A stretch of 64,000 bases of DNA from an uncultured Chloroflexia bacterium (GTDB taxonomy: Bacteria; Chloroflexota; Limnocylindria; QHBO01), in assembly GCA_963750025.1 (NCBI GenBank), contig CAVVPF010000002.1:20081-84080 (forward strand), given 5' to 3'. The notes beneath the pieces are model-generated. The model was given only the letters and a program-made list of their open reading frames with translations, searched no databases and had not been told where the DNA came from. Both the position numbers and the translations under genes were made by a program. Each line of letters begins with the position of its first letter. The first letter of the stretch is position 1. This document shows positions 32,118 through 58,803 of the stretch, piece after piece.

Positions 32118-33346
32118 GTCCGGTACTCGCTGTTGATGGCGACATAGGCGGCCGACAGGTCGCAGCCCCAGGCCTCGCCGCGCCCGCTGCCGAGGTGCAG
32201 GTCGATCCCCAGCTGCACGACCTCGGCGAGCAGCGCCCGGCTGGCGCGCGCCTCATCGAACGGCTGCGGCTCGCCGTCGTAGACGAGCTGGTCGCCGATG
32301 CGGATCGCCAGGAGCTCGGGGTCGAGCCGGGCTCCCGATTGACCGGCGGCCGAGGCGATGCGTCCCCAGTTCGGGTCGCCGCCGTGCACCGCGGCTTTGA
32401 CGAGGTTCGAGGTGGCCACCGCCCTGGCCAGCAGCCGCGCCTCCTCGTCGCTGGCCGCGCCGTCGACCAGGACGTCGATGCGCGACCGGGCGCCCTCTCC
32501 ATCGGCGGCGATCTGCCGGGCCAGGCTGCGGCAGACCGCCGCCACGCCGTCACCCAGGGCGTCTGCCGCCTCGCTGACCGGATCGACCGGACTCCCAGGG
32601 GCCGCCCCGCTGGCGAGCAGGAAGACCGCATCGTTGGTCGAGGTGTCGCCGTCGACGCTGACCTGGTTGAAGCTGCGGTCGACCGCCTCGCGCAGCAGCT
32701 GGCCCAGGAGCGCGGGCGTCGCCTGCGCATCGGTCGTCAGCAGGGCCAGCATGGTGGCCATCCGCGGGTGGATCATGCCGGCCCCCTTCGCCATGCCGCC
32801 CACCGTCAGCGTCCGCCCGTCGGCGAGCTCCACCCGGACGGCAGCCTGCTTCGGCCGCGTGTCGGTGGTCATGATCGCCGTCGCGGCGGCCAACCCGGAT
32901 GCGGCGTCGGCCCCCAGCTCGAGAGCGGGGATGGCCGCCTCGATGCGGTCCACCTGGAGCCGCGACCCGATGAGGCCGGTCGAGGCCGGCAGCACCTGGC
33001 CGGGGTCGCAGCCGATGGCCCGCGCTACGGCCGCCGTCACGCACCGCGCGTCGTCGATGCCGGCGCGGGCGGTCCCGGCGTTCGCGCAGCCGGCGTTGAT
33101 CACCACCGCCCGCGCGCGTCCGGCGCTCTCGGCCAGCACCTCGCGCGCCACGAGCACCGGGGCGGCGGCGAAACGGTTGGTGGTGAAGACGGCGGCGGCC
33201 GCGGCGGCGTCGCCGCTGGTGGCAACCACCGCGAGGTCGGGGGCCGGTCGCGTGCGCAGACCGGCGGTGGCGGCCCCCGCCACGAACCCGGCCGCGGCGG
33301 TCACGCCGCCCTCGATCGGTGTCACGCTGAACGGCCTCACGCTCAT
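32114..33346 (-). CDS. argJ: Bifunctional ornithine acetyltransferase / N-acetylglutamate synthase
   Basis: GFVAGAATAGL, the autoprocessing site region MLALLTTDA and the C-terminal YVAINSEYRT. Confidence 0.9.
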   Translation of the reverse strand: MSVRPFSVTPIEGGVTAAAGFVAGAATAGLRTRPAPDLAVVATSGDAAAAAAVFTTNRFAAAPVLVAREVLAESAGRARAVVINAGCANAGTARAGIDDARCVTAAVARAIGCDPGQVLPASTGLIGSRLQVDRIEAAIPALELGADAASGLAAATAIMTTDTRPKQAAVRVELADGRTLTVGGMAKGAGMIHPRMATMLALLTTDAQATPALLGQLLREAVDRSFNQVSVDGDTSTNDAVFLLASGAAPGSPVDPVSEAADALGDGVAAVCRSLARQIAADGEGARSRIDVLVDGAASDEEARLLARAVATSNLVKAAVHGGDPNWGRIASAAGQSGARLDPELLAIRIGDQLVYDGEPQPFDEARASRALLAEVVQLGIDLHLGSGRGEAWGCDLSAAYVAINSEYRT

Positions 33347-34368
33347 GGGTGCACCGCCACGCCCTCGAGACCGGCCGTCTCCGGCAGGCCCAGGGCCAGG
33401 TTCATGTTCTGGATCGCCTGGCCGGCGGCGCCCTTGCCCATGTTGTCGATCGCCGCCAGCACCACCGCCCGTCGCGGCCCGATGCGGACCGCATGGAGGA
33501 AGGCGTAATTCGTGCCCCAGGTGAGCTTCGACGAGGGCGAGACGTCGAGGACATGGACGAACGGCGCCTGCGCGTAGGCGTCACACAGGAGTGCGGTCAA
33601 CGCGTCCGAGCTGGTCTCCTCGGCGAGCTCCACGTGGCAGGTGGCCAGGATCCCGCGCAGCTGCGGCACCAGGTGCGGCACGAACGTGACCGATGGCTCC
33701 GCCCCGCCGGCGGCCTGCAGCCCCTGCACGAGCTCGGGCAGGTGCCGATGGCCGTCCAGCCCGTAGGCCCGCGTCCCGCCGTCGAGCTCGGTGAAGAGGA
33801 ACGCGTCGCCGGCGCCGCGGCCGGCGCCGCTGATCCCGGACTTGGCGTCGACGACCACGTGCCCGCCGATCAGCCCGGCCGCGGCCAGCGGCGCCAGGGC
33901 GAGCAGCGCGGCGGTCGGGTAGCAGCCGGGGTTGGCGATCAGCGTCGCCCCCGGCAGCGCGTCGCGCGCCCATTCGCTCAGCCCGTACACGGCGCGCGCC
34001 AGCGCGGACGGCGCCGGGTGCTCGAAGCCGTACCAGGTCGGGTAGGCCGATGGGTCGCGCAGCCGGAGGTCGGAGCCGATGTCGACCACCGTCGTGCCGC
34101 CGGCCTCCAGCCGCACCGCCAGCTCCGCTGAATGGCCGGCAGGGAGCGCCAGGAAGGCCACCTCCACGCCCGGCGCCGGATCGCCGCCGGAGAACACCAG
34201 GCCCAGTGGGGCGAGATGCGGGAATGTGGCGGCCAGCGGCAAGCCCTCGCGGTCACGGGCGTGCAGCGAGGCGATCTCCACCTGCGGGTGGGCCGAGAGC
34301 AGGCGGACGAGCTCGCCGCCCGCGTAGCCGCTGGCGCCGACGACCGCAGCCGAGATGCGCCGCGTCAT
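33343..34368 (-). CDS. argC: N-acetyl-gamma-glutamyl-phosphate reductase
   Basis: VVGASGYAGGELVRLL and active-site NPGCYPTA. ATG at 34368. Confidence 0.9.
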   Translation of the reverse strand: MTRRISAAVVGASGYAGGELVRLLSAHPQVEIASLHARDREGLPLAATFPHLAPLGLVFSGGDPAPGVEVAFLALPAGHSAELAVRLEAGGTTVVDIGSDLRLRDPSAYPTWYGFEHPAPSALARAVYGLSEWARDALPGATLIANPGCYPTAALLALAPLAAAGLIGGHVVVDAKSGISGAGRGAGDAFLFTELDGGTRAYGLDGHRHLPELVQGLQAAGGAEPSVTFVPHLVPQLRGILATCHVELAEETSSDALTALLCDAYAQAPFVHVLDVSPSSKLTWGTNYAFLHAVRIGPRRAVVLAAIDNMGKGAAGQAIQNMNLALGLPETAGLEGVAVHP

Positions 34369-35786
34369 GCCCCCGCTCCGGCCACGACCTCGGATGCGAT
34401 GGCGAGGCGCTCCGCGGCCGCCTGGACTGCGCCGCGCACCCGCGCTGGCGCCGTCCCGCCGATGAGGTCGGCCGCCGCCAGCGCCTCCTCGACGGTGGGG
34501 ACGATCGTCGGTCGATCGCCAAGCTCCGGCAGCGCGGCCCGCAGCTCGGCGTCGGGCAGCTCCGCGACGTCGAGCCCACGCGCCTCGGCCTCCGCCACCA
34601 GCTCGCCGACCCGCCGGTGCGCGGCCCGGAATGGCACGCCCGCGGCGAGCAGACGCTCGGCGAGGCTTACCGCCAGCCCGTGACCGGCGGTCGCCGCCCG
34701 CCGCATGGCCGCCCGGTCGAAGGCGACGTCGGCGAACATGGCGTCCATCGCGGCGACGCTGAGCGCCAGCGAGCTCGCCGCCTCGAGCATCGGCCCGCGC
34801 GACTCCTGGAAGTCGCGGTGGTAGGCCAGCGGCAGCCCATCGGTCAGGGCCAGCAGGGAGGTGACGGCTGCCTGGCAGCGGGCCGCCCTGGCGCGCACCA
34901 GCTCGGCAGCGTCGGGGTTGCGCTTGTTGGGCAGCATCGAGCTGCCGGAGACGAAGCCATCGGCCAGGCGGGCGAAGCCCAGGTAGGGGGTGACCCACAG
35001 CACCAGCTCGCCGGCCAGGCGGGAGAGGTGCCCGGCCGCGATGGCGCAGGCCGCGACCAGCTCGACCGCGTAGTCGCGATCGGCGACCGCGTCGAGCGAG
35101 TTGGCGGTCGGGGCGGAGAAGCCCAGGCGCTGGGCGACGCGCTGGCGGTCGATCGGCAGGCCGCTGCCGACGGCCGCCCCGGAGCCGGCCGGACAGCGGT
35201 CGGCGCGTGACGCGAGGTCGGCGAGGCGGCCGCGGTCGCGGTCGAGCATCTCGACGTAGGCGAGCAGGTGATGGGCCAGCAGCACGGGCTGCGCCGGCTG
35301 CGTATGGGTATGCGCCGGGAGCACGGTCTCCAGCTCCTCCGCCGCCCGGCGCACCAGCGTGCGCTGGAGGGAGAGCAGCAGGCCGTCGAGTTCGGCCACC
35401 GCGCCGCGCAGCCAGAGCCGCTCGTCGGTGACGATCTCCTCGTTGCGGCTGCGCCCGGCTTGGAGCTGCCCGGCCAGCTCGGCGCCGACCTCGTCGCGCA
35501 CGGCCGCCTCGACGTTCATGTGGATGTCCTCGTCGAGAGCGCTCCAGGCGAACGTGCCGCCCGCGATCCGGTCACCGACCGAGCGCAGGGCGCGGTCGAG
35601 CGTCTCGCGTCCGCCGGCATCAAGCAGGCCCAGGTGCTCGAGCTCGGCCACGTGCGCCCGCGACGCCTCGATGTCGAATGCGGCGAGCGGCAGGTCGACG
35701 CTGGCCGACCCCGAAAGCTGGAGAAGCAGCTCGCTGGGTCCGCCTGGCGTCCGGCCGGCGAGGAGCCCGCGCTGGGAATCTGGCAT
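34365..35786 (-). CDS. argH: Argininosuccinate lyase
   Basis: HTHTQPAQP and GSSMLPNKRNPD signature. The start is taken at MPDSQRG (35786). In-frame ATGs at 35810, 35858 and 35882 are alternatives. Confidence 0.85.
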   Translation of the reverse strand: MPDSQRGLLAGRTPGGPSELLLQLSGSASVDLPLAAFDIEASRAHVAELEHLGLLDAGGRETLDRALRSVGDRIAGGTFAWSALDEDIHMNVEAAVRDEVGAELAGQLQAGRSRNEEIVTDERLWLRGAVAELDGLLLSLQRTLVRRAAEELETVLPAHTHTQPAQPVLLAHHLLAYVEMLDRDRGRLADLASRADRCPAGSGAAVGSGLPIDRQRVAQRLGFSAPTANSLDAVADRDYAVELVAACAIAAGHLSRLAGELVLWVTPYLGFARLADGFVSGSSMLPNKRNPDAAELVRARAARCQAAVTSLLALTDGLPLAYHRDFQESRGPMLEAASSLALSVAAMDAMFADVAFDRAAMRRAATAGHGLAVSLAERLLAAGVPFRAAHRRVGELVAEAEARGLDVAELPDAELRAALPELGDRPTIVPTVEEALAAADLIGGTAPARVRGAVQAAAERLAIASEVVAGAGA

Positions 35787-47965: not shown

Positions 47966-48840
47966 CAGCGCACCACCTTCTCGATCGGCACCACCAGGAT
48001 GTCGCGCGCGCCGACCGCCTTGAGGGCCGGGATGAGGCGCCAGAGCGAGGCGCGCTCGACGACCGTGTGGATGGCGATCATGTCCGGGTTGGCGAGCGGC
48101 ATGACGGTCGGCCCGGAGAGGCCGGGGATGAGCGCCCGGATCTGGTCGAGGGAGGCGGCCGGGGCGTTCATCATCATGTACTCCCTGCCCCGGGCGTCGA
48201 GCACGCTGCGGAGCATCCCGACCAGCGGCTGCCACGGCTCGGTCGGCTCCGCGGCGCGCGTGACGAGCACCGCCTGGGACTCCAGGAGGGTGGCGATCGG
48301 GCGCAGCCCGTTCAGGCGCAGCGTGGAACCGGTGGCAACCAGGTCGACGACCGCATCGGACACGCCCAGCTGCGGCGTGACCTCGACCGCACCGCGCACC
48401 TCGATCACCTGCGCCTCGATCCCTTCCGCCTCGAGGTAGGCGCGGGTCAAGCGGGGGAAGGCGGTCGCGACCCGGCAGCCATTGAGCTGCAGCGGCTCCG
48501 TGACCGATCCGCTGCGCGGGACCGCCAGCGTCAGCGTGCAGGCCCCGAAGCCGAGCTCCAGGACCGGGCGAAGCTCGGCCGGGTCCTGGGGTGCGCGCTC
48601 GGCGACCAGGTCTTGCCCTGTTACCCCGGCATCGACCAGACCGTCCGCCACGTACTCCGGCACGTCCTCCGCCCGCACGAAGAGGAGGTCGAGCTCGTAG
48701 TTGCGCGCCGATGCAGTGAGGCTGTGCTCGCTGACCTCCACCTCGAGCCCGGCGTCGCGCAGGAGCCGCAGGGCGGGCTCGGCCAGCCGCCCCTTGTTCG
48801 GCAGCGCCAGGCGCAGGGCGTCACCGCCGTTGAGGCTCAT
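47965..48840 (-). CDS. hisG: ATP phosphoribosyltransferase, long form
   Basis: LRLALPNKGRL, DLVATGSTL and a C-terminal regulatory domain. Confidence 0.9.
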   Translation of the reverse strand: MSLNGGDALRLALPNKGRLAEPALRLLRDAGLEVEVSEHSLTASARNYELDLLFVRAEDVPEYVADGLVDAGVTGQDLVAERAPQDPAELRPVLELGFGACTLTLAVPRSGSVTEPLQLNGCRVATAFPRLTRAYLEAEGIEAQVIEVRGAVEVTPQLGVSDAVVDLVATGSTLRLNGLRPIATLLESQAVLVTRAAEPTEPWQPLVGMLRSVLDARGREYMMMNAPAASLDQIRALIPGLSGPTVMPLANPDMIAIHTVVERASLWRLIPALKAVGARDILVVPIEKVVR

Positions 48841-50798: not shown

Positions 50799-51080
50799 GG
50801 CAACGCCTCCATCCTGTCAGGGACGGAGGCGTATTCCGCGGTGCCACCCTTGTTCGGACCGATTGGTCCGCACTCGTCACGCACCGGCCCTCGATTGGAC
50901 CGATGCGCCAGGCCGTGGTAACGGGACCTTCCGTCGCCGCCTACTGCCGCTGCGCCTTCGCGCGAGCGGGTTCGGGGCGAGGCTCGCGGGTCCATTCGCT
51001 CGTCGGTGCCACGCCGGCTTGCACCATCCCGGCTCGCTGGAGAGTTGCCTGCTGACGAGGTACTGGTCCCGGTCGACGCC
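50799..51080 (-). promoter_or_regulatory. T-box leader, Trp specifier (UGG), SD-sequestering type
   Basis: Minus strand has AGGGTGGCACCGCGG (50851-50836), matching the T-box core AGGGUGGNACCGCG. The specifier context GAA-TGG-A places the codon at 50994-50992. A Stem-I helix CTCGTC...GACGAG has a GGTGCAA distal loop. The hairpin CGCCTCC-N14-GGAGGCG (50831-50804) sequesters the GGAGG SD. Confidence 0.7.
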
Positions 51081-51139
51081 GTCTTCGATTGGAAGCGCAT
51101 CGTAGGCGGCAGAGGGCGTGGTGGTCAAGCCCGACTCCG

Positions 51140-51556
51140 TCAACCCAACAGCAGGTCAATCGCCTGCAGGTAGCCCTGCCAGCCCTGCCCGATGACCTGG
51201 TGCCCCACGGCCGGTTCCAGCACCGAGGCGTGTCGCCACGCCTCGCGGGAAAAGACGTCGCTGATGTGCACCTCGACCGCGAGGCGCCCACAGGCGACCA
51301 GGGCATCGTGCAGCGCGCGGCTGGTGTGCGACAGGGCCCCGGCGTTGATGATCACCGCGTCGTAATCGAGCACCTCCAGCCGGTCGATGAGTGCGCCCTC
51401 GTGGTTGGACTGGAGGTGCTCGAGCGTCGACCCGCGCTCCTCCGCGTGGGCGCATGCCGCATCGACGATCTCGGCCAGGGTCATCGTTCCGTAGATCTCG
51501 GGCTGGCGACGCCCCAGGGTGCCGAGGTTCGGGCCGTTGAGCAGCAGGATCCGCAT
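51140..51556 (-). CDS. aroQ: Type II 3-dehydroquinate dehydratase
   Basis: LLLNGPNLG..G.R.P.IYG, QSNHEG and HISD motifs. Confidence 0.9.
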   Translation of the reverse strand: MRILLLNGPNLGTLGRRQPEIYGTMTLAEIVDAACAHAEERGSTLEHLQSNHEGALIDRLEVLDYDAVIINAGALSHTSRALHDALVACGRLAVEVHISDVFSREAWRHASVLEPAVGHQVIGQGWQGYLQAIDLLLG

Positions 51557-51559
51557 CGG

Positions 51560-53149
51560 TCAATCCTGGGCGACGGCGCGCAGCGCCGTCGCCAGCTCGG
51601 CATCCGTCACATCGTCGACCTCAACCGTCTGACCGATCGCCATCGGCAGGATCCAACGCTGGCGGCCGCGCTCGCGCTTCTTGTCGAGATCGAGGGCGGC
51701 GCGCACGCGCGCCGGGTCGAGCGCCATTCGCTGACGATAGCCAAGCTGGATCAGGAGCGCATCCAGGCGTGGCGCGAGCTCCTCGTCGCCGCCGCGCCTC
51801 GCCGCCAGATTCGCGGCCGCCCGTAGACCGATGGCGACCGCCGCGCCATGCGCCAGGCGGTAGCCGCTCGCCACCTCGAGCGCATGTCCGATCGTGTGGC
51901 CCAGGTTGAGGTTGCGTCGCTCGCCGGCCTCGAACGGGTCACGCTCGACGATCGCCAGCTTGACCCGGACGGCGCGTTCAGTGATGGCGTAGCGGACCTC
52001 CTCATCGCCGCGCAGCGCCGCCTTGCCGCGTCGCTCGATCAGCCGCCACAGCTCCGGATCGCCGATCATCGCGACCTTGATCGCCTCGGCCATGCCCTCG
52101 CGCAGCCGAGGGCGGGGGAGCGTACGCAGGGCGGCGAGATCCTCGACGACCGCGACGGGGGGCCAGAAGGCGCCGACCAGGTTCTTGGCCGCCGACAGGT
52201 CGACGGCGACCTTGCCGCCGATCGCCGCGTCGACCTGGGCCAGCCAGCTGGTGGGGACCTGGACGAGGGGCAGGCCCCGCGCGTAGAGGGCCGCCGCCAG
52301 CCCAGCGAGGTCGCCCAGCGTGCCGCCCCCGAAGGCCACGAGCGGGGTGCCGCGCTCGGTCCGCTGCCCTGCCAGCCACTCGAGGATGTGCTCAAGGCGA
52401 CGCAGTCGCTTGCTGCGCTCGCCGGCGGTGAGCTCAAGGCGCGGACCGGCAGGGAGTGCCGCGACGAGGGCCGGCAGCGCCCCGGCTGCCCGCCGGTCGG
52501 CCACGATCACGGGCTCACGCTCGACGATTCCGGCGTAGACCCCGTCCGGCAGGTCCACCCCGAGGACGATGCGCGCGGTGGCGGGGCCGATCGGGTGGTG
52601 GCGAGGGACCTCTGCGTCGAAGAGCCTCCCGGTCCGGGGCGTCGCCACCAGGCGGGCCGCGAGATCGTCCGCGACCTGCACCATCGGATGAGTGGCATCT
52701 ACCCACACGTCGGCGGCGCGGTAGAACGGTTCGCGCTGGGTCGCCAGGGCAAGCAGACGAGCGGTGGCGTCGGCGTCGAGCAGCGGGCGGGGCACGCCAT
52801 CGGTCTCGAGGCGTCGCGCGAGTTCGTCGACCGGCGCCTGGAGCCAGACCAGGCGGCCGTGCCGGCGGAGGGCCCATCGGTTCAGTGGGTCGTTCAGCGC
52901 ACCCGCTCCGGTCGCGATCACCGAGCCCGGCATGGCGCAGGCGCGGAGCAGCGCGTCGCGCTCGAGCTCTCGGAAGCTCGCCTCGCCGTCATGACGCAAG
53001 ATCGCGGGGACAGCGCGACCGGTGGCCTGCTCGACCAGCTCGTCCGTGTCGCACAGCTGCCGGCCCAGGCGCTGCGCAAGGACGCGCCCGACCGCTGTCT
53101 TCCCGCTTCCGGACAGCCCGACCAGCGCGATCCCGGCGGCCTCAGGCAT
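51560..53149 (-). CDS. aroK/aroB: Shikimate kinase fused to 3-dehydroquinate synthase
   Basis: The N-terminal P-loop is LVGLSGSGKTAVG. The DHQS body has GGGTLGDLAG and NLGHTIGHALE. ATG at 53149. Confidence 0.85.
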   Translation of the reverse strand: MPEAAGIALVGLSGSGKTAVGRVLAQRLGRQLCDTDELVEQATGRAVPAILRHDGEASFRELERDALLRACAMPGSVIATGAGALNDPLNRWALRRHGRLVWLQAPVDELARRLETDGVPRPLLDADATARLLALATQREPFYRAADVWVDATHPMVQVADDLAARLVATPRTGRLFDAEVPRHHPIGPATARIVLGVDLPDGVYAGIVEREPVIVADRRAAGALPALVAALPAGPRLELTAGERSKRLRRLEHILEWLAGQRTERGTPLVAFGGGTLGDLAGLAAALYARGLPLVQVPTSWLAQVDAAIGGKVAVDLSAAKNLVGAFWPPVAVVEDLAALRTLPRPRLREGMAEAIKVAMIGDPELWRLIERRGKAALRGDEEVRYAITERAVRVKLAIVERDPFEAGERRNLNLGHTIGHALEVASGYRLAHGAAVAIGLRAAANLAARRGGDEELAPRLDALLIQLGYRQRMALDPARVRAALDLDKKRERGRQRWILPMAIGQTVEVDDVTDAELATALRAVAQD

Positions 53150-53936
53150 ATGGCGACCCGTGAAGCTCGGCACCCAGCGCCTCGCGCATGACCTCGACCG
53201 GCGCGGGTGTGCCGGTCCACAGCTCGAAGCTCGCCGCAGCCTGGCGCAGCAGCATCCCGGCGCCGCCACGGGCCTGCGCGCCGGCCCCCAGCGCATCGCG
53301 AACCAGGCGCGTCGGGCTCGGCCGATAGACGAGGTCGAACACGGCGAGGTCGGAGCGGAGCAGCTCCGCGTGGACCGGGGTGGCGTCCGACGCCGTGCCG
53401 ACCGGCGTCGCGTTGACGAGCAGCTGCGCCTGGGCCAGGAGCGCCGGCATCTCGTCCCATCGGTCGCGGCCGACCAGCGTCACATCCGGGACTCCCGCAT
53501 CGGTCAGCGCGGAGAGCGCCGCACGAGCCGCGCCCCCGGCGCCCAGCACGATCGCGCGCGTGACCGATGCCTCCCGCTCGGCGAGCAGCTCGCCGAGCAG
53601 CTCGCCCAGCTCGGCTGCGAGGGCGGGCATGTCGGTGTTGTGCCCCGCCAGCTTGTCGCCGTCGCGCACGATCGTGTTCACGGCCCCGAGCCGGGCCGCC
53701 AGCGGCTCCAGCACATCGAGCAGTGCAGGAACGGCGAGCTTGTGGGGGATCGTCACGTTGGCCCCGTGCCGGTCCGGGCCGCGCAGCTCCGCGACCGCCC
53801 CCGACAGGGCATCGGGCGGAACGTCACGCAGGGTGTAGCGCCAGTCGAGGCCCGTCGCTGCGAAGGCGGCATCCTGCATCGCCGGCGACGCCGAATAACC
53901 GATCTGGTGGCCGAGCAGCACGACCTCGCCGCTCAT
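53142..53936 (-). CDS. aroE: Shikimate dehydrogenase
   Basis: SASPAMQDAAF, NVTIPHK, NTD and GAGGAARA motifs. Confidence 0.85.
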   Translation of the reverse strand: MSGEVVLLGHQIGYSASPAMQDAAFAATGLDWRYTLRDVPPDALSGAVAELRGPDRHGANVTIPHKLAVPALLDVLEPLAARLGAVNTIVRDGDKLAGHNTDMPALAAELGELLGELLAEREASVTRAIVLGAGGAARAALSALTDAGVPDVTLVGRDRWDEMPALLAQAQLLVNATPVGTASDATPVHAELLRSDLAVFDLVYRPSPTRLVRDALGAGAQARGGAGMLLRQAAASFELWTGTPAPVEVMREALGAELHGSPYA

Positions 53937-55135
53937 GCGTCCACCGCGACAGGCCGGCGCGATCGGCGCGTTCGCCGCCGCAACGCCGCCCGCAGGTCGC
54001 CGACCGTGTCGCCGCCGAGCGTCGCCAACAGCTCGTCCGCGAGCACCAGCGCGACCATCGCCTCGCCGACCACGGCGGCCCGCGGCAGGATCGTGATGTC
54101 GCTGCGCTCGATGTGCGCCCGCCCCACCTCCCCATCCGCCAGGTCGACGCTTGGCAGCGGCTTGCGCAGCGAGGAGATTGGCTTGACGGCGGCTCTCACC
54201 ACAACAGGTTCGCCGTTGCTGATGCCGCCCTCGATGCCGCCGGCCCGGTTCGTCAGGCGTCCCCAACCGGCCGCCGCCGGGTCGACGACATCATGCACCT
54301 GGCTGCCGCGCCGGTCGACGACGCCGAAGCCCAGGCCGATCTCGACCCCTTTTACGGCTGGGATGGCCATCACCGCGCCTGCCAGCAGCCCGTCCAGCCG
54401 GGTGTCCCACTCCGACGACGATCCCAGCCCCGTCGGCAGCCGCTCGGCGACGACCACGAACGAGCCGCCGATGGAGTCGCCCGCCTCGCGGACCGCATCG
54501 ATCTCAGCCAGCATCGCGCGCTCCGCCTCAGGGTCCGGGCAGCGCAGTGGGGATGGGCGTCGCAGGTCGGCGGCTGGCCAGCCGTCCGGCACGCTGCGCA
54601 CGACGTCGTCGGCTGCGGGGAAGGCGCGAATCGGCCCAACCTGGTCGACGAAGCTCCAGATGCGCACCCCGGCGACGCGCAGGAGTTGTCGCGCCAGCGA
54701 GCCGCCCACCACGCGCACCGCCGTCGAACGCGCCGAGGCACGCTCGAGGACGTCGCGAATGTCGTTGGCGTCGTACTTGATGGCGCCGGCCAGGTCCACG
54801 TGGCCCGGGCGTGCCAGGGTGATCGGTCGTGGCCGGTCCTCCGCGGCGGAGGCCTCGACCGCCATGCGGGCCTGCCAGTTCTGCCAGTCGAGGTTGTCGA
54901 CCCCGAAGCCGATCGGCGAGCCGAGCGTCCGCCCGAACCGGATTCCGCCGGTCCAGCGCACGCGGTCACGCTCGATCTGCATCCGGCGCCCGCTGCCGTA
55001 GCCATGCTGCCGGCGGCGCAGGTCGCGGTTCACGATCGCGGTCGAGACCGTGAGCCCGGCCGGCATCCCCTCCAGCACGCCGATCAGCCCCGGCCCATGC
55101 GACTCGCCGGCGGTTAGCAGGCGCAGCCGCCTCAT
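53933..55135 (-). CDS. aroC: Chorismate synthase
   Basis: LTAGESHG start and RPGHVDLAG. 400 aa. Confidence 0.9.
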   Translation of the reverse strand: MRRLRLLTAGESHGPGLIGVLEGMPAGLTVSTAIVNRDLRRRQHGYGSGRRMQIERDRVRWTGGIRFGRTLGSPIGFGVDNLDWQNWQARMAVEASAAEDRPRPITLARPGHVDLAGAIKYDANDIRDVLERASARSTAVRVVGGSLARQLLRVAGVRIWSFVDQVGPIRAFPAADDVVRSVPDGWPAADLRRPSPLRCPDPEAERAMLAEIDAVREAGDSIGGSFVVVAERLPTGLGSSSEWDTRLDGLLAGAVMAIPAVKGVEIGLGFGVVDRRGSQVHDVVDPAAAGWGRLTNRAGGIEGGISNGEPVVVRAAVKPISSLRKPLPSVDLADGEVGRAHIERSDITILPRAAVVGEAMVALVLADELLATLGGDTVGDLRAALRRRTRRSRRPVAVDA

Positions 55136-56439
55136 CGGTCCATCCCGGTGAGCGCGGCCAGGTCTTCGAAGAAGCCGGGGTAGGAGATGGCCACGCAGTC
55201 GGCGTCGTCGAGATGGACCGATGCGGCGACCCCCGTCGCCGCGGCAAGCGCGAAGGCGATCGCGACGCGGTGGTCTCCGTGGGAGCTGATGGCCGCATCT
55301 CGCGGCTCGCCACGCTGCACGCGCCAGCCGTCGGGCAGCTCCTCGACGTGCGCGCCGATCGCCGCCAGCCCGGCCACGACGGCCGCGATGCGGTCCGACT
55401 CTTTGACGCGCAGCTCGGCAGCGCCGCGCAGCTCGCTGATGCCGTCGGCGGCGGCCATGGCCACCGCCAGCAGCGGCAGCTCGTCGATCAGCCCGGGCAC
55501 GTCGTCCGCGCCCAGCTGGATGGCGTGCAGCCGGCCACCGCCGCGCACCGTGATCTCTCCGACCGGCTCCGGGCCGTCGGTGGCCACCTCGTGCACCTCG
55601 ATCCGGGCGCCCATGGCGCGCAGGACATCCACGCTGGCCAGGCGGGTCGGGTTGAGGCAGACGCCCTCCAGCCGCAGCTCGGCGTCGGGGTGGAGTGCCC
55701 CGGCCACGAGCCAGGCGGCGGCCGACGACGGATCACCGGGCACCTCGAACGATCGGGCCGTGAGGCGGGTCGGTCCGCGCACGGTGGTCGTCAGCCCGTC
55801 GCGCGCGATGTCGGCGCCCATCCACGCCAACAGCCGCTCGGTGTGGTCGCGCACCGCGGCGGGCGAGTGGATGACGGTCATGCCGTTGGCCGAGAGGGCC
55901 GCGCAGGCGATCGCGCCGAGCAGCTGGGCGCTGGGCACCGCCAGGTGGTGCTCGAGCGCGGTGAGCGGGGTCCGGCCGCTGATGCGCAGCGGGGCGTGGC
56001 CATCATCGGTATCGACCTGGGCGCCCATCGCGCGCAGCGGTGCCGCCACCCGCTCCATCGGGCGCCGACTCAGGGAGGCGTCGCCGTCCAGGATGGCGAA
56101 GAGCGGCTGGCCGGCGAGCGCGCCGGCCAGGAGTCGCATGGTGGTGCCGGAGTTTCCGCAGTCGAGCGGCTGGTCCGGCGTACGCCACTCCCCACCCCGG
56201 ATGTGGGCGACCATCGGCTCACCGTCGAGGACCTGGAGCTGCGCGCCGAGCCCGCGAAGACAGCCGATCGTGCTCCACACATCTAGGCCTGGCCGGTTCA
56301 GCCTCACCTCTGCCGTCCCATCTGCCAGGGCATTGGCGAGCAGCGCGCGATGGGTGATCGACTTGTCAGAGGGCAGCCGCAGCCGGCCATCCAGCCGAGC
56401 AGCCGGCCGAATCGGATGCGGCTTGACCGTCGCCGTCAC
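55132..56439 (-). CDS. aroA: 3-phosphoshikimate 1-carboxyvinyltransferase (EPSP synthase)
   Basis: LPSDKSITHRAL, NSGTTMRLL and KESDR motifs. Confidence 0.9.
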   Translation of the reverse strand: MTATVKPHPIRPAARLDGRLRLPSDKSITHRALLANALADGTAEVRLNRPGLDVWSTIGCLRGLGAQLQVLDGEPMVAHIRGGEWRTPDQPLDCGNSGTTMRLLAGALAGQPLFAILDGDASLSRRPMERVAAPLRAMGAQVDTDDGHAPLRISGRTPLTALEHHLAVPSAQLLGAIACAALSANGMTVIHSPAAVRDHTERLLAWMGADIARDGLTTTVRGPTRLTARSFEVPGDPSSAAAWLVAGALHPDAELRLEGVCLNPTRLASVDVLRAMGARIEVHEVATDGPEPVGEITVRGGGRLHAIQLGADDVPGLIDELPLLAVAMAAADGISELRGAAELRVKESDRIAAVVAGLAAIGAHVEELPDGWRVQRGEPRDAAISSHGDHRVAIAFALAAATGVAASVHLDDADCVAISYPGFFEDLAALTGMDR

Positions 56440-57782
56440 GCCCGCCCCTCGATCCCGTTGGCGACACCGGTGCTTGCCTGCCGTCGCTGGGCGGCGCGCG
56501 AGACCCGCACCACGGCGCTGAAGACGGTGGTCAGCTCCTCCGGCGTGAGGGGCCCGGCCTCGCCGCGCGCCGCGCGCTCGAGCAGCTCGCGTTCGCGCGC
56601 CACGTCGTGGCCGTGGCTGTCCAGCCCGCGAATCCGTTGGACTTGGAGCGCCAGGATGGCCCGTTCCTGGAGCAGGGCGGCCAGGCGTTCGTCCAGCCCA
56701 TCGATCTGCTCGCGCAGTGCCGTGAGATCGCGACTGCCCGAATTAGCAGGTGCCGGCTGGGCGGCCTCGGCATGGGTGCCATCGCGCACGAACTGGAGGC
56801 GACGCAGCTCGTCCATCAGATCGCCGAACTCGTCGAAGCTGAGTGACTGGTCGCCATCGGACTTCGCATTCGGCGGGTCCGGATGGACCTCGATCAGCAG
56901 CCCGTCCGCGCCGACGGCGGCGGCGCCCAGTGCCATCGGTCCAACCAGCGAGCGCTGCCCGGTGCCGTGCGAGGGATCGACCACGATCGGCAAGTGCGTC
57001 TGACCCCGGAGCACCGGCACCGCCGACAGGTCGAGGGTGTTGCGGGTGGCCGTCTCGAACGTGCGAATCCCGCGCTCGCAGAGGATCACGTTCGGGTTGC
57101 CGCTGGACAGGATGTACTCGGCGGCCAGCAGCCACTCGTCGATGGTCGCGCTCAGGCCGCGCTTGAGCAGGGCCGGCTTGCGGCTCTGGCCAACAGCCCG
57201 CAGCAGGACGAAGTTGTGCATGTTCCGGGCGCCGACCTGGAGGAGGTCGACGTGCTCGTCGAAGGCCTCCACCTGCGAGGCGTCGACCACCTCGCTGACG
57301 ACCGGCAGGCCGGTCTCGGCGCGCGCCTCGGACAGCAGCTGGAGGGCCGGCATGCCCAGGCCCTGGAAGGAGTACGGTGAGCTGCGCGGCTTGAAGGCCC
57401 CGCCGCGCAGGATGCGGGCGCCTTCGCGTCGCACCCAATGCGCGGTCTGGAGCAGCTGGTCTCTCGACTCGACGGCGCACGGCCCGGCCATGATCACCAG
57501 CCCTCCGCCGTTGCCGACGCTGACCTCACCTACGCGGACGCGCGTGCGCTCGTGGTGGTGCTCGACGCTGGCCAGCTTGTACGGCTGCGTGATGCGCACA
57601 ACCTGCTCGACCCCCTCGAGCGTTCCGAGGTGGGCGACCCGCTCGAGATCGGTCCCGACCACACCGATGACGGTCCGCTCCTCGCCCTCGCTCACGAATG
57701 CGTCCAGGCCGTGCTCCTCGACGGCGTGCTGAACCTGCGCGATCTGCTCGCGCGTTGCTCCTGGACGCATGACCACGATCAT
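56436..57782 (-). CDS. Type I-beta DAHP synthase with an N-terminal ACT/ferredoxin-like domain and a C-terminal chorismate mutase domain
   Basis: AGGAG-N9-ATG at 57782. The N-terminal approximately 75 aa are MIVVMRPGATREQI... The catalytic barrel has MAGPCAVES, KPRSSPYSFQG and DPSHG. The C-terminal LREQIDGLDERLAALLQERA... is AroQ-type CM-like. Confidence 0.8.
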   Translation of the reverse strand: MIVVMRPGATREQIAQVQHAVEEHGLDAFVSEGEERTVIGVVGTDLERVAHLGTLEGVEQVVRITQPYKLASVEHHHERTRVRVGEVSVGNGGGLVIMAGPCAVESRDQLLQTAHWVRREGARILRGGAFKPRSSPYSFQGLGMPALQLLSEARAETGLPVVSEVVDASQVEAFDEHVDLLQVGARNMHNFVLLRAVGQSRKPALLKRGLSATIDEWLLAAEYILSSGNPNVILCERGIRTFETATRNTLDLSAVPVLRGQTHLPIVVDPSHGTGQRSLVGPMALGAAAVGADGLLIEVHPDPPNAKSDGDQSLSFDEFGDLMDELRRLQFVRDGTHAEAAQPAPANSGSRDLTALREQIDGLDERLAALLQERAILALQVQRIRGLDSHGHDVARERELLERAARGEAGPLTPEELTTVFSAVVRVSRAAQRRQASTGVANGIEGRA

Positions 57783-57812
57783 TGCCGCAATCTCCTGGGG
57801 CCCCTGGCGGGG

Positions 57813-57837
57813 AAACAAAAAACGCAGGGGTCCTGCG
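57813..57837 (-). terminator. Intrinsic terminator of the aro leader (attenuator)
   Basis: Minus strand reads CGCAGG-ACC-CCTGCG followed by TTTTTTGTTT, about 30 nt before the DAHP synthase start. An upstream CGCAG copy offers an alternative pairing. Confidence 0.6.
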
Positions 57838-57901
57838 ACCTCTGCGTTCTGCGGGCACGAGTGCCTTCGCTGGCGAGTACTACTCGCCTGCCTCGTGCCC
57901 G

Positions 57902-57928
57902 CTACGCGTAAAACCAGTTCTGGAACAT
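57902..57928 (-). promoter_or_regulatory. Leader peptide ORF MFQNWFYA (aromatic-codon attenuator)
   Basis: ATG TTC CAG AAC TGG TTT TAC GCG TAG lies 12 nt after the -10 box. Four of its eight codons are Phe, Trp or Tyr. It is followed by a 9-bp hairpin (GGGCACGAG..CTCGTGCCC) and the terminator. Confidence 0.65.
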
Positions 57929-57940
57929 GGGTTGAGCGGC

Positions 57941-57969
57941 AGCCTAGCCCGTGCCTCGCACCGTGTCAA
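57941..57969 (-). promoter_or_regulatory. Canonical promoter of the aro operon
   Basis: Minus strand reads TTGACA (57969-64), a 17-nt spacer, then TAGGCT (57946-41). Confidence 0.6.
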
Positions 57970-58083
57970 TGCTGGAGACCCCGTTTCGGCTCGCCGGGGC
58001 GCGCCGGGCATGGCAGTCCCGGGCTGACGCGGCTGCCCCGGCGGCGATGCGACCGTCGACGACGGTGATCCCCTGCGTGCCTG

Positions 58084-58803
58084 TCAGCCATTCCGGAGCG
58101 CATCCGCAGCGGCAAAGACGCTCCGACCACCGTCGACGCGGACGACCGAGCCGGTGACGTAGGTGGCGTCTGGACCCAGCAGCCACCCAATCGCGCCGGC
58201 CACCTCCTCCGCGCTACCCATGCGGCCCAGTGGAACGTCCGCCCGCGCATCGGGCGGGAGGAGCGGCTCGTCGAAGGTCGTCTCGATCGGTCCGGGTGCA
58301 ACCACGTTCACGCGCACGCCATCTGGACCGCCGACCAGCGCCGCCGAGCGGGCGAGCCCTTCCAGACCGGCCTTGGCGGCGGCGTAGCCGGCCGAGCGCG
58401 GCGAGCCCTCGACGGTGCCAACGATTGAGCCGATGAGGACCACGGAGCCTCTGGCCGCGCGGAGCGCTGGCCAGGCGAGGCGCACGGCGGTGAACGGAGC
58501 GGAGAGGTCGACCCGGATGGCCTCCTCCCATCGGGCCGGGTCATCCCACGGGCCGCGTGGGGGGACGCCGGCCGCGCAAATCAGGCCATCGAGCCGGCCG
58601 CCGGCCGCCTCGACGGCGCGCGTCAGCAGCGACGGGTCGCCGGCGTCGCCGATGAGAAGCTCACCTCTCGGCAGCGAAGCATCGACCAGGTCGATCCCGA
58701 TGACCCGCCAGCCATCGGCCATCAGTCGTTCGGAGATCGCCCGACCGATGCCGGAGGCGGCGCCGGTGACGATCGCCGTGCGTTGGGCTTGCTCGGTCGC
58801 CAT
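58084..58803 (-). CDS. Short-chain dehydrogenase/reductase (SDR) family oxidoreductase
   Basis: TGAASGIGRA cofactor motif and YAAAKAG catalytic motif. Confidence 0.85.
   Translation of the reverse strand: MATEQAQRTAIVTGAASGIGRAISERLMADGWRVIGIDLVDASLPRGELLIGDAGDPSLLTRAVEAAGGRLDGLICAAGVPPRGPWDDPARWEEAIRVDLSAPFTAVRLAWPALRAARGSVVLIGSIVGTVEGSPRSAGYAAAKAGLEGLARSAALVGGPDGVRVNVVAPGPIETTFDEPLLPPDARADVPLGRMGSAEEVAGAIGWLLGPDATYVTGSVVRVDGGRSVFAAADALRNG

What the first reader, a model, noticed from the sequence alone, without database searches (positions are those of the whole stretch)
57813..57969. Classical ribosome-mediated attenuator with an all-aromatic leader peptide (MFQNWFYA) controlling the common aromatic pathway operon
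A textbook TTGACA-N17-TAGGCT promoter is followed 12 nt later by ATG TTC CAG AAC TGG TTT TAC GCG TAG. Next come a 9-bp hairpin starting 1 nt after the stop, an inner 6-bp hairpin, duplicated CGCAG segments allowing alternative pairing, and an intrinsic terminator (CGCAGG-ACC-CCTGCG plus T6). The terminator lies about 30 nt before the DAHP synthase/chorismate mutase gene. Leader peptides usually sense one amino acid. This one mixes Phe, Trp and Tyr codons in an 8-codon peptide, matching the fact that the operon makes the shared precursor chorismate. The branch gene trpE has its own Trp T-box.
Basis: partly seen in the sequence, partly recalled or inferred. Interest (0 to 1): 0.7.

Follow-up and report, generated by a model that had tools for sequence, protein, structure and literature searches.

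The report
Aromatic leader-peptide attenuator before aro operon
A tiny 8-codon gene rich in Phe, Trp and Tyr codons, followed by a folded RNA and a transcription stop signal, sits in front of the whole shared aromatic amino-acid pathway of an uncultured soil Chloroflexota bacterium; it is very probably a ribosome-read supply gauge of a known kind, but its RNA switch is built unusually.

Summary
It comprises a TTGACA-N17-TAGGCT promoter, ATG TTC CAG AAC TGG TTT TAC GCG TAG, an 11-bp outer helix enclosing a 7-bp hairpin, and the only hairpin+T-run terminator found in the 64-kb window, 30 nt before an FXD-DAHPS-chorismate mutase gene. That gene heads aroA-aroC-aroE-aroKB-aroQ.

About 30 related Limnocylindria leaders keep the promoter, frame, stop, helices and terminator. 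Their N-terminal codons drift, but three consecutive aromatic codons always begin 14, 11 and 8 nt before the outer helix. Aromatic mini-ORFs with a T-run precede 38 of 75 aroF-type genes across phyla (antisense 5, shuffled 2.5).

So a leader-peptide attenuator is well supported. Corynebacterium glutamicum aroR-aroF (Phe-Tyr-Phe) is a precedent, so mixing aromatic codons is not unprecedented.

The switch itself is unresolved. The terminator is never lost in window/group-1 equilibrium folds. The best candidate antiterminator (outer 3' arm with terminator 5' arm) is weak and shows no covariation. The CGCAG repeats are not conserved.

The scaffold reciprocally matches Rfam 'sRNA' Atu_C8, which I find is the Rhizobiales ilvIH leader. 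The Trp T-box before trpE exists, below Rfam's cut-off.

It is a new variant of a known kind, of moderate interest.

The parts
57964..57969 (-). -35 box TTGACA
   Evidence: Read directly. TTGAC(A/T) is present at the same relative place in all 28 leaders found by pattern, plus L003, L018 and L029.
57941..57946 (-). -10 box TAGGCT, 17 nt after the -35 box; the transcription start is inferred about 7 nt downstream, giving a 5' UTR of only about 4-6 nt
   Evidence: Relatives have TAnnnT or CAnnnT with a 16-18 nt spacer, and the ATG lies 9-13 nt after it. The consensus scanner did not call it. No Shine-Dalgarno sequence lies before the ATG.
57902..57928 (-). Leader ORF ATG TTC CAG AAC TGG TTT TAC GCG TAG (MFQNWFYA, stop included)
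   Evidence: Homologous 8-9 codon ORFs occur in 11 relatives of group 1: MTFQWFYG, MTYQWFYG, MSYMWFYV, MSQMWFYG, MNKFWFYV, MTRYWYFS, MTKYWYFS, MHQYWYFS, MNTFFWYYT, MTTFFWYYT. Metagenome contig ends indicate two further variants, whose ATG-proximal codons read MNS- and MNAF- and then join the window's W-F-Y codons.
57908..57916 (-). Core aromatic triplet TGG TTT TAC. The codons start 14, 11 and 8 nt before the outer helix. A further Phe codon TTC lies at 57925-57923.
   Evidence: The same 14/11/8 spacing is seen in group 1, in most group-2 leaders (FYF) and in the S. meliloti ilvIH leader for its last Val codon. The Phe codon inside the triplet is always the rare TTT, whereas Phe codons outside it are TTC.
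57892..57902 (-). S1: 5' arm of the outer helix, GCGGGCACGAG; its first base is the G of the TAG stop
   Evidence: It pairs with 57861-57851. All 11 pairs are kept in 11 distinct group-1 sequences, but almost without variation.
57872..57888 (-). Inner hairpin GGCGAGU-AGU-ACUCGCC (S2:S3); the loop holds a UAG in the +1 frame
   Evidence: Two pairs show compensatory changes among relatives (GC/CG and AU/GC). A metagenome variant changes A-U to G-C (57884 with 57876).
57863..57870 (-). Mini-hairpin GC-GAAG-GC, followed by GCAC (segment S4)
   Evidence: It aligns with GGC-GAAA-GCC plus GCAC of Rfam Atu_C8 and of the Rhizobium ilvIH leader. Most group-1 relatives have GCAGAGGCAC here.
57851..57861 (-). 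S5: 3' arm of the outer helix, CUCGUGCCCGC. It is also the candidate 5' strand of an antiterminator with 57845-57837.
   Evidence: The alternative pairing GGCaCUCgUGC with GCAGAGGUC has 9 bp and 2 bulges, -9.0 kcal/mol. It is the minimum-energy fold when S1 is masked and the terminator 3' arm is not yet made. Its core 5 pairs are invariant and show no covariation.
57823..57847 (-). Intrinsic terminator hairpin ACGCAG-A-GGUC-GCAG-GACC-C-CUGCG (or the shorter CGCAGG-ACC-CCUGCG)
   Evidence: The distal stem covaries among relatives (4 pairs with changes on both sides); the proximal CGCAG/CUGCG is invariant.
57813..57822 (-). U-tract T6GTTT
   Evidence: TTTTTTGTTT is kept in nearly all group-1 and group-2 leaders. 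It belongs to the only hairpin+T5 site found in the 64-kb window.
56436..57782 (-). First controlled gene: DAHP synthase with an N-terminal ferredoxin-like domain and a C-terminal chorismate mutase
   Evidence: Pfam DAHP_snth_FXD, DAHP_synth_1 and CM_2. GGAG lies 8 nt before the ATG at 57782.
51140..56439 (-). Rest of the operon: aroA, aroC, aroE, aroK-aroB fusion, aroQ
   Evidence: Pfam EPSP_synthase, Chorismate_synt, Shikimate_dh_N/SDH_C, SKI+DHQ_synthase and DHquinase_II. The genes overlap or abut, and no other terminator was found.

Best explanation
This is a ribosome-mediated transcription attenuator of the operon that makes chorismate.

Parts and sequence of events:
- Transcription starts a few bases before an 8-codon ORF that has no Shine-Dalgarno sequence.
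- The RNA then forms a three-way-junction hairpin: outer helix S1:S5, an inner hairpin and a mini-hairpin.
- Four bases later comes an intrinsic terminator (S6:S7 plus U6GUUU).
- By default the terminator stops most transcripts about 115 nt from the start.
- The speed at which a ribosome decodes the Phe, Trp, Phe and Tyr codons reports the supply of charged aromatic tRNAs and changes how often RNA polymerase reads through into aroF-CM-aroA-aroC-aroE-aroKB-aroQ.

Most likely wiring (inferred; roughly 40% of the total confidence):
- S1 acts as region 1, S5 as region 2, the terminator 5' arm S6 as region 3 and S7 as region 4.
- A ribosome held at the end of the aromatic triplet covers the first bases of S1. 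These form the GCGGG:CCCGC nucleation site of the outer helix.
- S5 then pairs with S6 before S7 is made, which delays the terminator.
- A ribosome that has finished and left lets S1 recapture S5, so the terminator forms.
- Because all four aromatic codons delay arrival and departure, all three amino acids can contribute.

Shown: the sequence elements, their conservation, covariation in two helices, and the gene content.
Inferred: translation of the ORF, termination, the direction of the response, and the pairing scheme.
For: Anatomy and stability. The fold has z = -4.4.

This is the only hairpin+T-run terminator found in the 64-kb window, and it lies between a conserved promoter and the first pathway gene.

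Conservation:
- 12 group-1 and 18 group-2 Limnocylindria leaders keep ATG, frame, stop and three consecutive aromatic codons at a fixed distance from S1. Other codons vary, and F/Y/W replace one another.
- On the group-1 alignment, 98.7% of cells are paired against 32-45% in slid controls, and 6 pairs show compensatory change.
- Aromatic mini-ORFs with a T-run lie upstream of 38 of 75 aroF-type genes from many phyla, against 5 antisense, 2.5 shuffled and 0 inside genes.

Experimental precedent: the C. glutamicum aroR-aroF leader, with Phe-Tyr-Phe, is induced by Phe limitation.

Wiring:
- With S1 masked and S7 not yet made, S5 pairs with S6 in the minimum-energy fold of all five group-1 subtypes.
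- In the window, the Tyr-stall fold (-22.1 kcal/mol, S7 absent) and the S5:S6-paired fold obtained under the stop mask (-21.9) are nearly isoenergetic.
- The share of S6 sequestered before S7 emerges rises from 0.04 (ribosome at Trp) to 0.34-0.70 (at Tyr and beyond).
- In group 2 the equivalent pairing is kept in 91% of cells against 25-56% in slid controls. It explains conserved terminator-loop bases.
- In L019 this pairing replaces the terminator in the equilibrium fold when the ribosome sits at the last Phe codon, but not when it sits at the stop.
Against: - There are no transcript, ribosome or reporter data. Only DNA metagenomes, plus one oligo-dT RNA run holding 5% of the sampled words, contain the sequence.
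- In the window, the terminator is favoured at equilibrium in every ribosome state.
- S5:S6 is weak (-9 kcal/mol, two bulges) and leaves the third CGCAGG copy free to form the short terminator.
- Both strands of S5:S6 are invariant, so there is no covariation.
- With a standard footprint (A site + 13 nt), only the last aromatic codon reaches S1. A ribosome stalled at the invariant Trp codon leaves the outer helix intact and predicts maximal termination.
- In group 1 a ribosome waiting at the stop codon covers S1 just as a stalled one does, so low expression in plenty requires fast release.
- Ribosome-free, truncated transcripts instead pair the aromatic codons themselves with the terminator 5' arm. 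The scheme does not use that pairing.
- The -10 box is weak, and translation with a 5' UTR of about 5 nt is assumed, not shown.
Confidence: 0.7

Rival explanations
1. The parts are the same but the read-out is inverted and non-classical. The three-way-junction hairpin must stay folded for read-through.

- A ribosome stalled anywhere in the aromatic codons stops just short of S1 and leaves the hairpin intact.
- A ribosome that passes them reaches the stop at the foot of S1 and melts the hairpin. In group 2, in L028 and in the Rhizobiales ilvIH leader it runs on into the inner loop.
- Only then does the terminator work.

The folded hairpin would suppress termination without pairing to the terminator. 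It might act sterically, because it lies 1-4 nt from the terminator stem and abuts the stalled ribosome. Or it might act on RNA polymerase, as the HK022 put RNA does (from my own knowledge).
For: - All aromatic codons, including Phe-2 and the invariant Trp at -14, would then be productive.
- The stop codon always sits at or inside S1.
- In 15 of 18 group-2 leaders an AUG overlapping the UGA (AUGA) opens a 6-codon frame. It ends at UAG, UAA or UGA in the inner loop, which would carry a finishing ribosome further into the hairpin.
- The ilvIH leader ORF ends in the same loop.
- The Rokubacteria leader L024 has a five-segment chain whose parity only makes sense if the stalled ribosome leaves the first helix free.
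- The linker between hairpin and terminator is always short.
- The unpaired GCAC and mini-hairpin motif is conserved across phyla.
Against: - No RNA pairing explains how a folded hairpin would block the adjacent terminator.
- I know of no precedent for steric or put-like antitermination inside a leader-peptide attenuator.
- In L019 the classical three-state switch works on paper.
- The second mini-ORF may be a by-product of the helix sequence GGCAUGA and of purine-rich loops.
Confidence: 0.15
2. The structured RNA is the sensor, and the short ORF is secondary. On this reading the three-way junction binds a protein or small molecule, and the aromatic codons are kept mainly because the pyrimidine-rich tract pairs with the purine-rich terminator 5' arm.
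For: - S1, S5 and the mini-hairpin/GCAC motif are conserved in sequence without covariation.
- The aromatic tract pairs with the linker and terminator 5' arm in ribosome-free truncated folds of most group-2 leaders.
- In L025 the ORF holds a near-copy of the terminator 3' arm, GACCUCUUC against GACCUCUGC.
Against: - Tyr UAC introduces an A-C mismatch into that helix and is nevertheless invariant.
- F, Y and W codons replace one another, and TAC/TAT vary, while ATG, frame and stop are always kept.
- The same scaffold carries Val/Ile/Leu codons before ilvIH and aromatic codons before aroF. That is the signature of codon sensing.
- No riboswitch family matches.
Confidence: 0.07
3. The aromatic nascent peptide, not tRNA charging, is what is sensed. 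On this reading MFQNWFYA arrests its ribosome at the stop codon when free aromatic amino acids are abundant, in the manner of TnaC (from my own knowledge). The arrested ribosome holds S1 open.
For: - The stop always follows the aromatic run by one codon in group 1.
- UAG-C is a poor termination context in E. coli (from my own knowledge).
Against: - The peptides are only 8-11 residues long and variable apart from the aromatic run.
- In group 2, four further residues intervene.
- A ribosome held on S1 favours S5:S6 pairing in the folds, which means more read-through in plenty. That is the wrong direction.
Confidence: 0.04
4. Chance ORF. On this reading the hairpins and T-run simply terminate the upstream pheA-SDR transcript, and aroF is read from a promoter not recognised here.
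For: The upstream genes are co-directional and end 115 nt before the -35 box.
Against: - A promoter, ORF and terminator in this order are conserved next to aroF in about 30 leaders whose upstream neighbours differ: tRNA genes, transposase-like and other genes.
- There is no room for a promoter in the 30 nt between the T-run and the aroF ATG.
- The enrichment over controls is strong.
Confidence: 0.03

Closest known systems
Corynebacterium glutamicum aroR-aroF leader-peptide attenuator (Mentz et al. 2013, PMC4046766; Neshat et al. 2014, as summarised in PMC11802643)
   Same: - A short leader ORF with mixed aromatic codons (Phe-Tyr-Phe) directly upstream of a DAHP synthase operon.
- Reported induction under Phe limitation.
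- Leader peptides in that organism are translated without a ribosome-binding site (Morbach 2000, cited in PMC4046766).
- Group-2 relatives of the window carry the very same F-Y-F motif.
   Different: - The phylum differs (Actinomycetota against Chloroflexota).
- The DAHP synthase here is the type I-beta enzyme fused to FXD and chorismate mutase, and it heads the whole seven-step pathway.
- The window's leader adds Trp.
- I could not read the aroR RNA structure, so likeness of the switch is untested, and no sequence comparison was made.
Enterobacterial pheL-pheA and trpL-trpEDCBA attenuators (Rfam Phe_leader, Trp_leader)
   Same: The logic of promoter, short ORF with cognate codons, alternative RNA pairings and an intrinsic terminator before a biosynthetic operon.
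   Different: - There is no Rfam match at any threshold used.
- The enterobacterial leaders have 14-15 codons, a Shine-Dalgarno sequence, a single amino acid sensed, regulatory codons inside region 1 and a strong nested antiterminator.
- Here there are 8 codons and a near-leaderless start. The codons lie 8-14 nt before the first helix, a 30-nt structured insert sits between regions 1 and 2, and the antiterminator is weak.
Rhizobiales ilvIH leader, filed in Rfam as 'sRNA' Atu_C8 (RF02502)
   Same: Reciprocal similarity:
- Atu_C8 is the only notable Rfam match of the window's leader (33 bits, E 3.5e-5, full length) and of L001 and L005 (31.6 and 36.5 bits).
- A model built from group 1 hits the Rhizobium lusitanum copy at 33.4 bits, E 6e-8, as well as it hits Limnocylindria group 2.

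Shared architecture:
- regulatory codons about 8 nt before a long helix;
- an inner hairpin;
- a GC-GAAA-GC mini-hairpin followed by GCAC;
- a short linker, then a terminator.
   Different: - The match is below the family's gathering score (50).
- The regulatory codons are Val/Ile/Leu (MKNFAVILVVGRRMGRMV) and the gene controlled is acetolactate synthase.
- Its ORF runs through S1 and S2 and stops in the inner loop.
- Common descent against convergence is undecided.
Leaderless Cys-codon short ORFs of mycobacteria (Canestrari et al. 2020; from my own knowledge, not read here)
   Same: Very short, leaderless or near-leaderless ORFs rich in the cognate codon, upstream of the matching biosynthetic operon in a high-G+C bacterium.
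   Different: As I recall, those act without a canonical intrinsic terminator. Here a canonical hairpin plus U-tract is the conserved output element.

Membership tests
Leader-peptide (ribosome-mediated) transcription attenuators | A short ORF enriched in codons for the end product(s) of the controlled operon | tested here: met
   4 of 7 sense codons after the ATG are Phe/Trp/Tyr. This is conserved in about 30 relatives with aromatic-for-aromatic replacement. The enrichment is 38 of 75 against 5, 2.5 and 0 in controls.
Leader-peptide (ribosome-mediated) transcription attenuators | An intrinsic terminator between the ORF and the first structural gene, downstream of the operon promoter | tested here: met
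   Hairpin plus T6GTTT at 57847-57813, 30 nt before aroF. It is the only such site found in the window. Promoter boxes are conserved upstream.
Leader-peptide (ribosome-mediated) transcription attenuators | A mutually exclusive antiterminator pairing whose formation depends on ribosome position | tested here: inconclusive
   - A candidate S5:S6 pairing exists. It is the minimum-energy fold when S1 is masked and S7 is absent, and it is conserved in 78% (group 1) and 91% (group 2) of cells.
- It is weak, shows no covariation, and never displaces the window's terminator at equilibrium.
- The same procedure gives clear switching in the Syntrophia leaders.
Leader-peptide (ribosome-mediated) transcription attenuators | The ORF is translated; a short terminated transcript exists; read-through rises on starvation for the cognate amino acid | not testable with these tools
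   The lineage appears to be known only from metagenome-assembled genomes. Only DNA metagenomes hold the sequence; one oligo-dT RNA run holds 5% of the sampled words.
Rfam RF02502 Atu_C8 (here shown to be the Rhizobiales ilvIH leader) | Score at or above the curated gathering threshold (50 bits) | tested here: not met
   33.0 bits for the window and 31.6-36.5 bits for L001 and L005. The reciprocal hit is 33.4 bits. This is a likeness of scaffold, not family membership.
Rfam Phe_leader / Trp_leader / other curated leader families | Any match at the gathering threshold or at E <= 10 | tested here: not met
   There is no such match in the whole window at gathering level, nor in 57600-58200 at E <= 10.
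T-box leaders (considered for the aroF leader itself) | Stem I with a specifier loop, and the conserved T-box sequence | tested here: not met
   There is no T-box match in 57600-58200. The window's T-box lies before trpE at 51085-50816.

The most novel reading that the evidence does not exclude
The window's leader and the Rhizobiales ilvIH leader (Rfam 'sRNA' Atu_C8) may be two members of one widespread attenuator scaffold. Only the regulatory codons would be exchanged to suit the operon.

The scaffold consists of:
- a very short ORF;
- regulatory codons ending 8 nt before a three-way-junction hairpin;
- a terminator 1-4 nt after that hairpin.

On this reading the scaffold does not work through a classical antiterminator. 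The intact hairpin, abutted by the stalled ribosome, would itself prevent the adjacent terminator from acting, either sterically or through RNA polymerase. A ribosome that runs into the hairpin would switch termination on.
Probability: 0.15. Interest if true: 0.8.

Novelty: new variant of a known kind. Interest (0 to 1): 0.5.

Why it matters
- It places leader-peptide attenuation of the entry into aromatic amino-acid synthesis in Chloroflexota (class Limnocylindria), an abundant soil and freshwater lineage that seems to be known only from metagenomes.
- It adds to evidence that mixed Phe/Tyr/Trp leaders before aroF-type DAHP synthases are widespread, not a Corynebacterium peculiarity.
- One ribosome-read gauge for the shared trunk pathway, plus a Trp T-box on the trpE branch in the same gene array, is a tidy two-tier design.
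- The ultra-short, near-leaderless ORF and the hairpin geometry do not fit the textbook four-region model well. The same scaffold appears before ilvIH in Rhizobiales under an 'sRNA' label. The locus is therefore a compact test case for how minimal attenuators couple ribosome position to termination.
- It also gives annotators a rule for finding such unannotated leaders.

Tried and rejected
The window's own genome and close relatives could not be searched, so relatives came from the search for related loci and one metagenome pattern scan.
- The pattern scan was mostly chance hits. Only 5 of the fetched loci were true leaders.
- Equilibrium folding with ribosome masks did not reveal an antiterminator in the window.
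- I looked for upstream partners of each terminator arm.
  - The internal-loop segment GGCAGAGGCA pairs with the terminator 3' arm in most of group 1 (a pseudoknot idea). It is lost in the window itself (AGCGAAGGCA) and shows no covariation, so I dropped it as the conserved switch.
  - Pairing of the stop codon plus S1 with the terminator 3' arm (-11.5 kcal/mol) occurs only in the window and L136.
  - The CGCAG repeats are not conserved.
- A +1-frame stop in the inner loop of group 1 has no consistent start codon. I found no convincing frameshift site, and reading through UAG gives an open frame no longer than chance allows at 72% G+C.
- A possible GUG-initiated ORF across the terminator (57858..57526) is not kept in group 2.
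- Literature searches for Atu_C8 found nothing relevant. No paper was found describing mixed aromatic leaders before DAHP synthase outside Corynebacterium.
- RNA runs were sought without useful result.
Full report
**What is there.**

The feature lies on the minus strand.
- TTGACA (57969-57964), a 17-nt spacer and TAGGCT (57946-57941) are followed after 12 nt by ATG TTC CAG AAC TGG TTT TAC GCG TAG (57928-57902; MFQNWFYA).
- The G of the stop opens an 11-bp outer helix, S1 57902-57892 with S5 57861-57851.
- That helix encloses a 7-bp hairpin (57888-57872) and a GC-GAAG-GC mini-hairpin (57870-57863).
- Four bases later comes a terminator hairpin (57847-57823) and T6GTTT (57822-57813), 30 nt before the ATG of the next gene (57782).
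- The 131-nt RNA folds at -61.9 kcal/mol, z = -4.4.
- The terminator scanner calls the site. The promoter scanner does not, because TAGGCT matches TATAAT at only three positions.
- A scan of my own finds this to be the only hairpin+T5 site on either strand of the 64-kb, 72% G+C window.

**Context.**

- The gene behind the leader has a ferredoxin-like domain, a type I DAHP synthase core and a chorismate mutase domain.
- It is followed, abutting or overlapping, by EPSP synthase, chorismate synthase, shikimate dehydrogenase, a shikimate kinase/dehydroquinate synthase fusion and type II dehydroquinase. Together these are all seven steps to chorismate plus chorismate mutase.
- Then comes a full-length T-box (51085-50816; 78.3 bits, below Rfam's gathering score of 93; E 1.4e-16; specifier GAA-UGG-A) and trpE.
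- Upstream, co-directional, are leuCD, pheA and a short-chain dehydrogenase.
- The closest DAHP synthase relatives are metagenome-assembled Chloroflexota of the class Limnocylindria.

**Conservation.**

Upstream of the homologous gene in about 30 Limnocylindria loci I find the same order of parts: TTGACA, 16-18 nt, TAnnnT, 9-13 nt, a short ORF, a long hairpin, a terminator and T6GTTT.
- Group 1 contains the window and 11 others, whose enzymes carry the chorismate mutase fusion. Their 8-9 codon ORFs end in TAG at the foot of the helix: MTFQWFYG, MTYQWFYG, MSYMWFYV, MSQMWFYG, MNKFWFYV, MT(R/K)YWYFS, MHQYWYFS, M(N/T)TFFWYYT.
- Group 2 (18 loci) has M-x-x-x-F-Y-F-R-(C/R)-P-A with TGA inside the 5' arm of the helix.
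- The N-terminal codons drift freely. ATG, frame and stop are always kept. F, Y and W replace one another, and TAC/TAT alternate.
- Three consecutive aromatic codons always start 14, 11 and 8 nt before the helix.
- The Phe codon inside that triplet is always the rare TTT; Phe codons outside it are TTC.
- Metagenome contigs add two variants whose ATG-proximal codons read MNS- and MNAF- before joining the window's W-F-Y codons. They also show an A-U to G-C exchange in the inner hairpin.
- On the group-1 alignment the drawn structure is paired in 98.7% of cells, against 32-45% for slid controls. Six pairs show compensatory change, all in the inner hairpin and the distal terminator. S1, S5 and the proximal terminator are invariant in both groups.

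**Breadth and chance.**

- Among 75 aroF-type loci from many phyla with enough upstream sequence, 38 have a 5-35 codon ORF in the sense upstream 300 nt with at least 3 aromatic residues in 5, followed by a T-run.
- The controls give 5 (antisense), 2.5 (shuffled) and 0 (inside the gene).
- Examples are Syntrophia (..FYGYWFYTYF..), Acidobacteriota (..SYFWFRFW..), Gemmatimonadota, Methylomirabilota/Rokubacteria and Verrucomicrobiia.
- Earlier notes of this scan report similar leaders in cyanobacteria, Patescibacteria and Woesearchaeota. I treat these as leads only.
- The published precedent is C. glutamicum, whose aroF leader (aroR) has Phe-Tyr-Phe and raises transcription under Phe limitation.
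It is unusual against E. coli, but not new.

**How it may work.**

That this is a leader-peptide attenuator rests on anatomy, conservation and precedent. No transcript data exist for this lineage. The wiring is the weak point.

I imposed ribosome footprints (A site + 13 nt) at every codon.
- The Syntrophia leaders switch cleanly between antiterminator and terminator, so the method can see a classical switch.
- In the window and group 1 the terminator survives in every state at equilibrium.

Three alternative pairings emerged.
1. **S5 with the terminator 5' arm S6.**
   - In the window it has 9 bp and two bulges, -9.0 kcal/mol.
   - It is the minimum-energy fold in all five group-1 subtypes when S1 is masked and the terminator 3' arm is not yet made.
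   - Its core is invariant but shows no covariation: 78% of cells paired against 30-59% in slid controls.
   - In group 2 the equivalent pairing (GGGUCgUGCC with the distal 5' arm, loop and proximal 3' arm) is kept in 91% of cells against 25-56%. It explains conserved loop bases.
   - In L019 it displaces the terminator at equilibrium when the ribosome is at the last Phe codon. A ribosome at the stop frees the inner 3' arm to capture S5 and restores the terminator.
2. **A local hairpin between the GCAC segment and S5**.
3. **The aromatic codons themselves with the linker and S6.** In ribosome-free truncated transcripts this pairing extends the long hairpin, in most of group 2 and part of group 1.

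The share of S6 sequestered before the 3' arm emerges is therefore high without a ribosome. It falls to near zero with a ribosome on the first codons and on Trp (0.04 in the window). It rises again (0.34-0.70) from the last aromatic codon to the stop.

**Best reading.**

S1, S5, S6 and S7 act as regions 1-4. The ribosome must cover the first bases of S1, which are the GCGGG:CCCGC nucleation site left free by S5:S6, at the moment S5 and S6 emerge. The structured 30-nt insert then works as a delay. A fast ribosome has finished and left. One slowed at any of the four aromatic codons is still on the last codons or the stop.

This accounts for the fixed 8-nt spacing, the rare TTT codon and the mixed codons. 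It has three weaknesses:
- it relies on kinetic trapping by a weak helix;
- it leaves the short CGCAGG-ACC-CCUGCG terminator unblocked in the window;
- it predicts no induction from a hard stall at Trp.

**Main rival.**

The inverse logic holds that the hairpin must stay folded for read-through and that a finishing ribosome melts it. Several observations fit this better:
- the stop codon always sits at or inside S1;
- 15 of 18 group-2 leaders have a second 6-codon frame that starts at the AUGA overlap and ends at UAG, UAA or UGA in the inner loop;
- the five-segment chain of the Rokubacteria leader L024 has the matching parity.

However, this rival has no pairing that would block the terminator.

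**An unexpected relative.**

- The only notable Rfam match of the leader is the 'Rhizobiales sRNA' Atu_C8: 33 bits for the window, and 31.6 and 36.5 bits for L001 and L005, all full length and below the gathering score of 50.
- Blasting the Atu_C8 consensus against PLSDB places it 52 nt upstream of acetolactate synthase large subunit and ilvN in S. meliloti.
- It contains the ORFs MKNFAVILVVGRRMGRMV and, in R. lusitanum, MKITMVLAVVIGRMGGMV. Each stop lies in the inner hairpin loop, and in S. meliloti the last Val codon starts 8 nt before the outer helix.
- Atu_C8 is therefore the ilvIH attenuator leader.
- A covariance model built from group 1 hits the R. lusitanum copy at 33.4 bits (E 6e-8 in 317 kb). 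That is within the range of the Limnocylindria group-2 leaders (17-46 bits). It aligns the GC-GAAA-GC mini-hairpin and the GCAC motif.
- Whether this reflects common descent, transfer or convergence cannot be told from these data.

**Verdict.**

- The interpretation as a leader-peptide attenuator of the common aromatic operon is well supported by comparative evidence.
- 'Classical' and the CGCAG pairing idea are not supported.
- It is a new variant of a known kind: a near-leaderless 8-codon ORF, a three-way-junction spacer and a weak or non-classical antiterminator, in a new phylum.
- Interest is moderate.

Noticed in passing
window 50816-51085 (-): A full-length T-box leader lies directly before trpE, with a Trp specifier context GAA-UGG-A. 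It scores 78.3 bits, E 1.4e-16, below Rfam's gathering score of 93, so the default search misses it. No T-run terminator follows it.
   Followed up: partly
L201 2501-2600 (S. meliloti) and L202 2501-2620 (R. lusitanum): Rfam family RF02502 'Rhizobiales sRNA Atu_C8' lies about 50 nt upstream of acetolactate synthase (ilvI/ilvN). It encodes an 18-codon Val/Ile/Leu-rich ORF, so it is the ilvIH attenuator leader rather than a free-standing sRNA gene.
   Followed up: partly
L007, L009, L018, L019, L021, L025, L029, L030, L039, L046, L052, L056, L058, L065, L068 (leader regions about 100-150 nt before the aroF match): In group-2 leaders an AUG overlapping the leader's UGA stop (AUGA) opens a second 6-codon frame (for example MNVSGR, MTDPGA, MKAPGP). 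It ends at UAG, UAA or UGA in the loop of the inner hairpin in 15 of 18 sequences. This may be a re-initiation frame that carries the ribosome further into the hairpin, or a by-product of the helix sequence.
   Followed up: partly
L008, L016, L020, L024, L026, L027, L033, L055, L059-L061, L072, L075, L079 (upstream of the aroF match): Longer aromatic-rich leader ORFs (20-31 codons) with terminators precede aroF-type DAHP synthase in Syntrophia, Rokubacteria/Methylomirabilota, Gemmatimonadota, Acidobacteriota and Verrucomicrobiia. The Syntrophia ones fold as textbook 1:2/2:3/3:4 switches.
   Followed up: partly
L062 (Pseudomonadota MAG), about 120-390 nt upstream of the aroF match: Two short ORFs with W-R-W-W-W runs (Trp-type leaders) lie upstream of an aroF-type gene, instead of a mixed aromatic leader.
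   Followed up: no
window, whole 64 kb: Only one hairpin followed by five or more T was found on either strand. This 72% G+C genome seems to use canonical intrinsic terminators very rarely, and the one instance is inside a regulatory leader.
   Followed up: partly
window 56436-57782 (-): The DAHP synthase carries both an N-terminal ferredoxin-like regulatory domain and a C-terminal chorismate mutase domain. The close relatives L001-L006 share the full-length match; more distant ones match only through the DAHPS core.
   Followed up: no
window 57908-57916 and the homologous codons in L001-L068: The Phe codon inside the three-codon aromatic core is TTT in every leader seen, although Phe codons elsewhere in the same leaders are TTC and the genome is 72% G+C.
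   Followed up: partly
window 57879-57881 (-) and group-1 relatives: The inner hairpin loop of 8 of 12 group-1 leaders holds UAG or UAA in the +1 frame, 22 nt after the leader's stop. Only L001, L002 and L178 have an AUG in that frame.
   Followed up: partly
window 45533-48235 (-) and 51560-53296 (-): Long ORFs combine two enzymes: histidinol dehydrogenase with a class I/II aminotransferase, and shikimate kinase with dehydroquinate synthase. The first may be an over-extended ORF call rather than a true fusion.
   Followed up: no
window 29042-34998 (-): An arginine cluster (argC, argJ, argB, argR, argG) lies here. The argG ORF runs on into a GNAT acetyltransferase domain.
   Followed up: no
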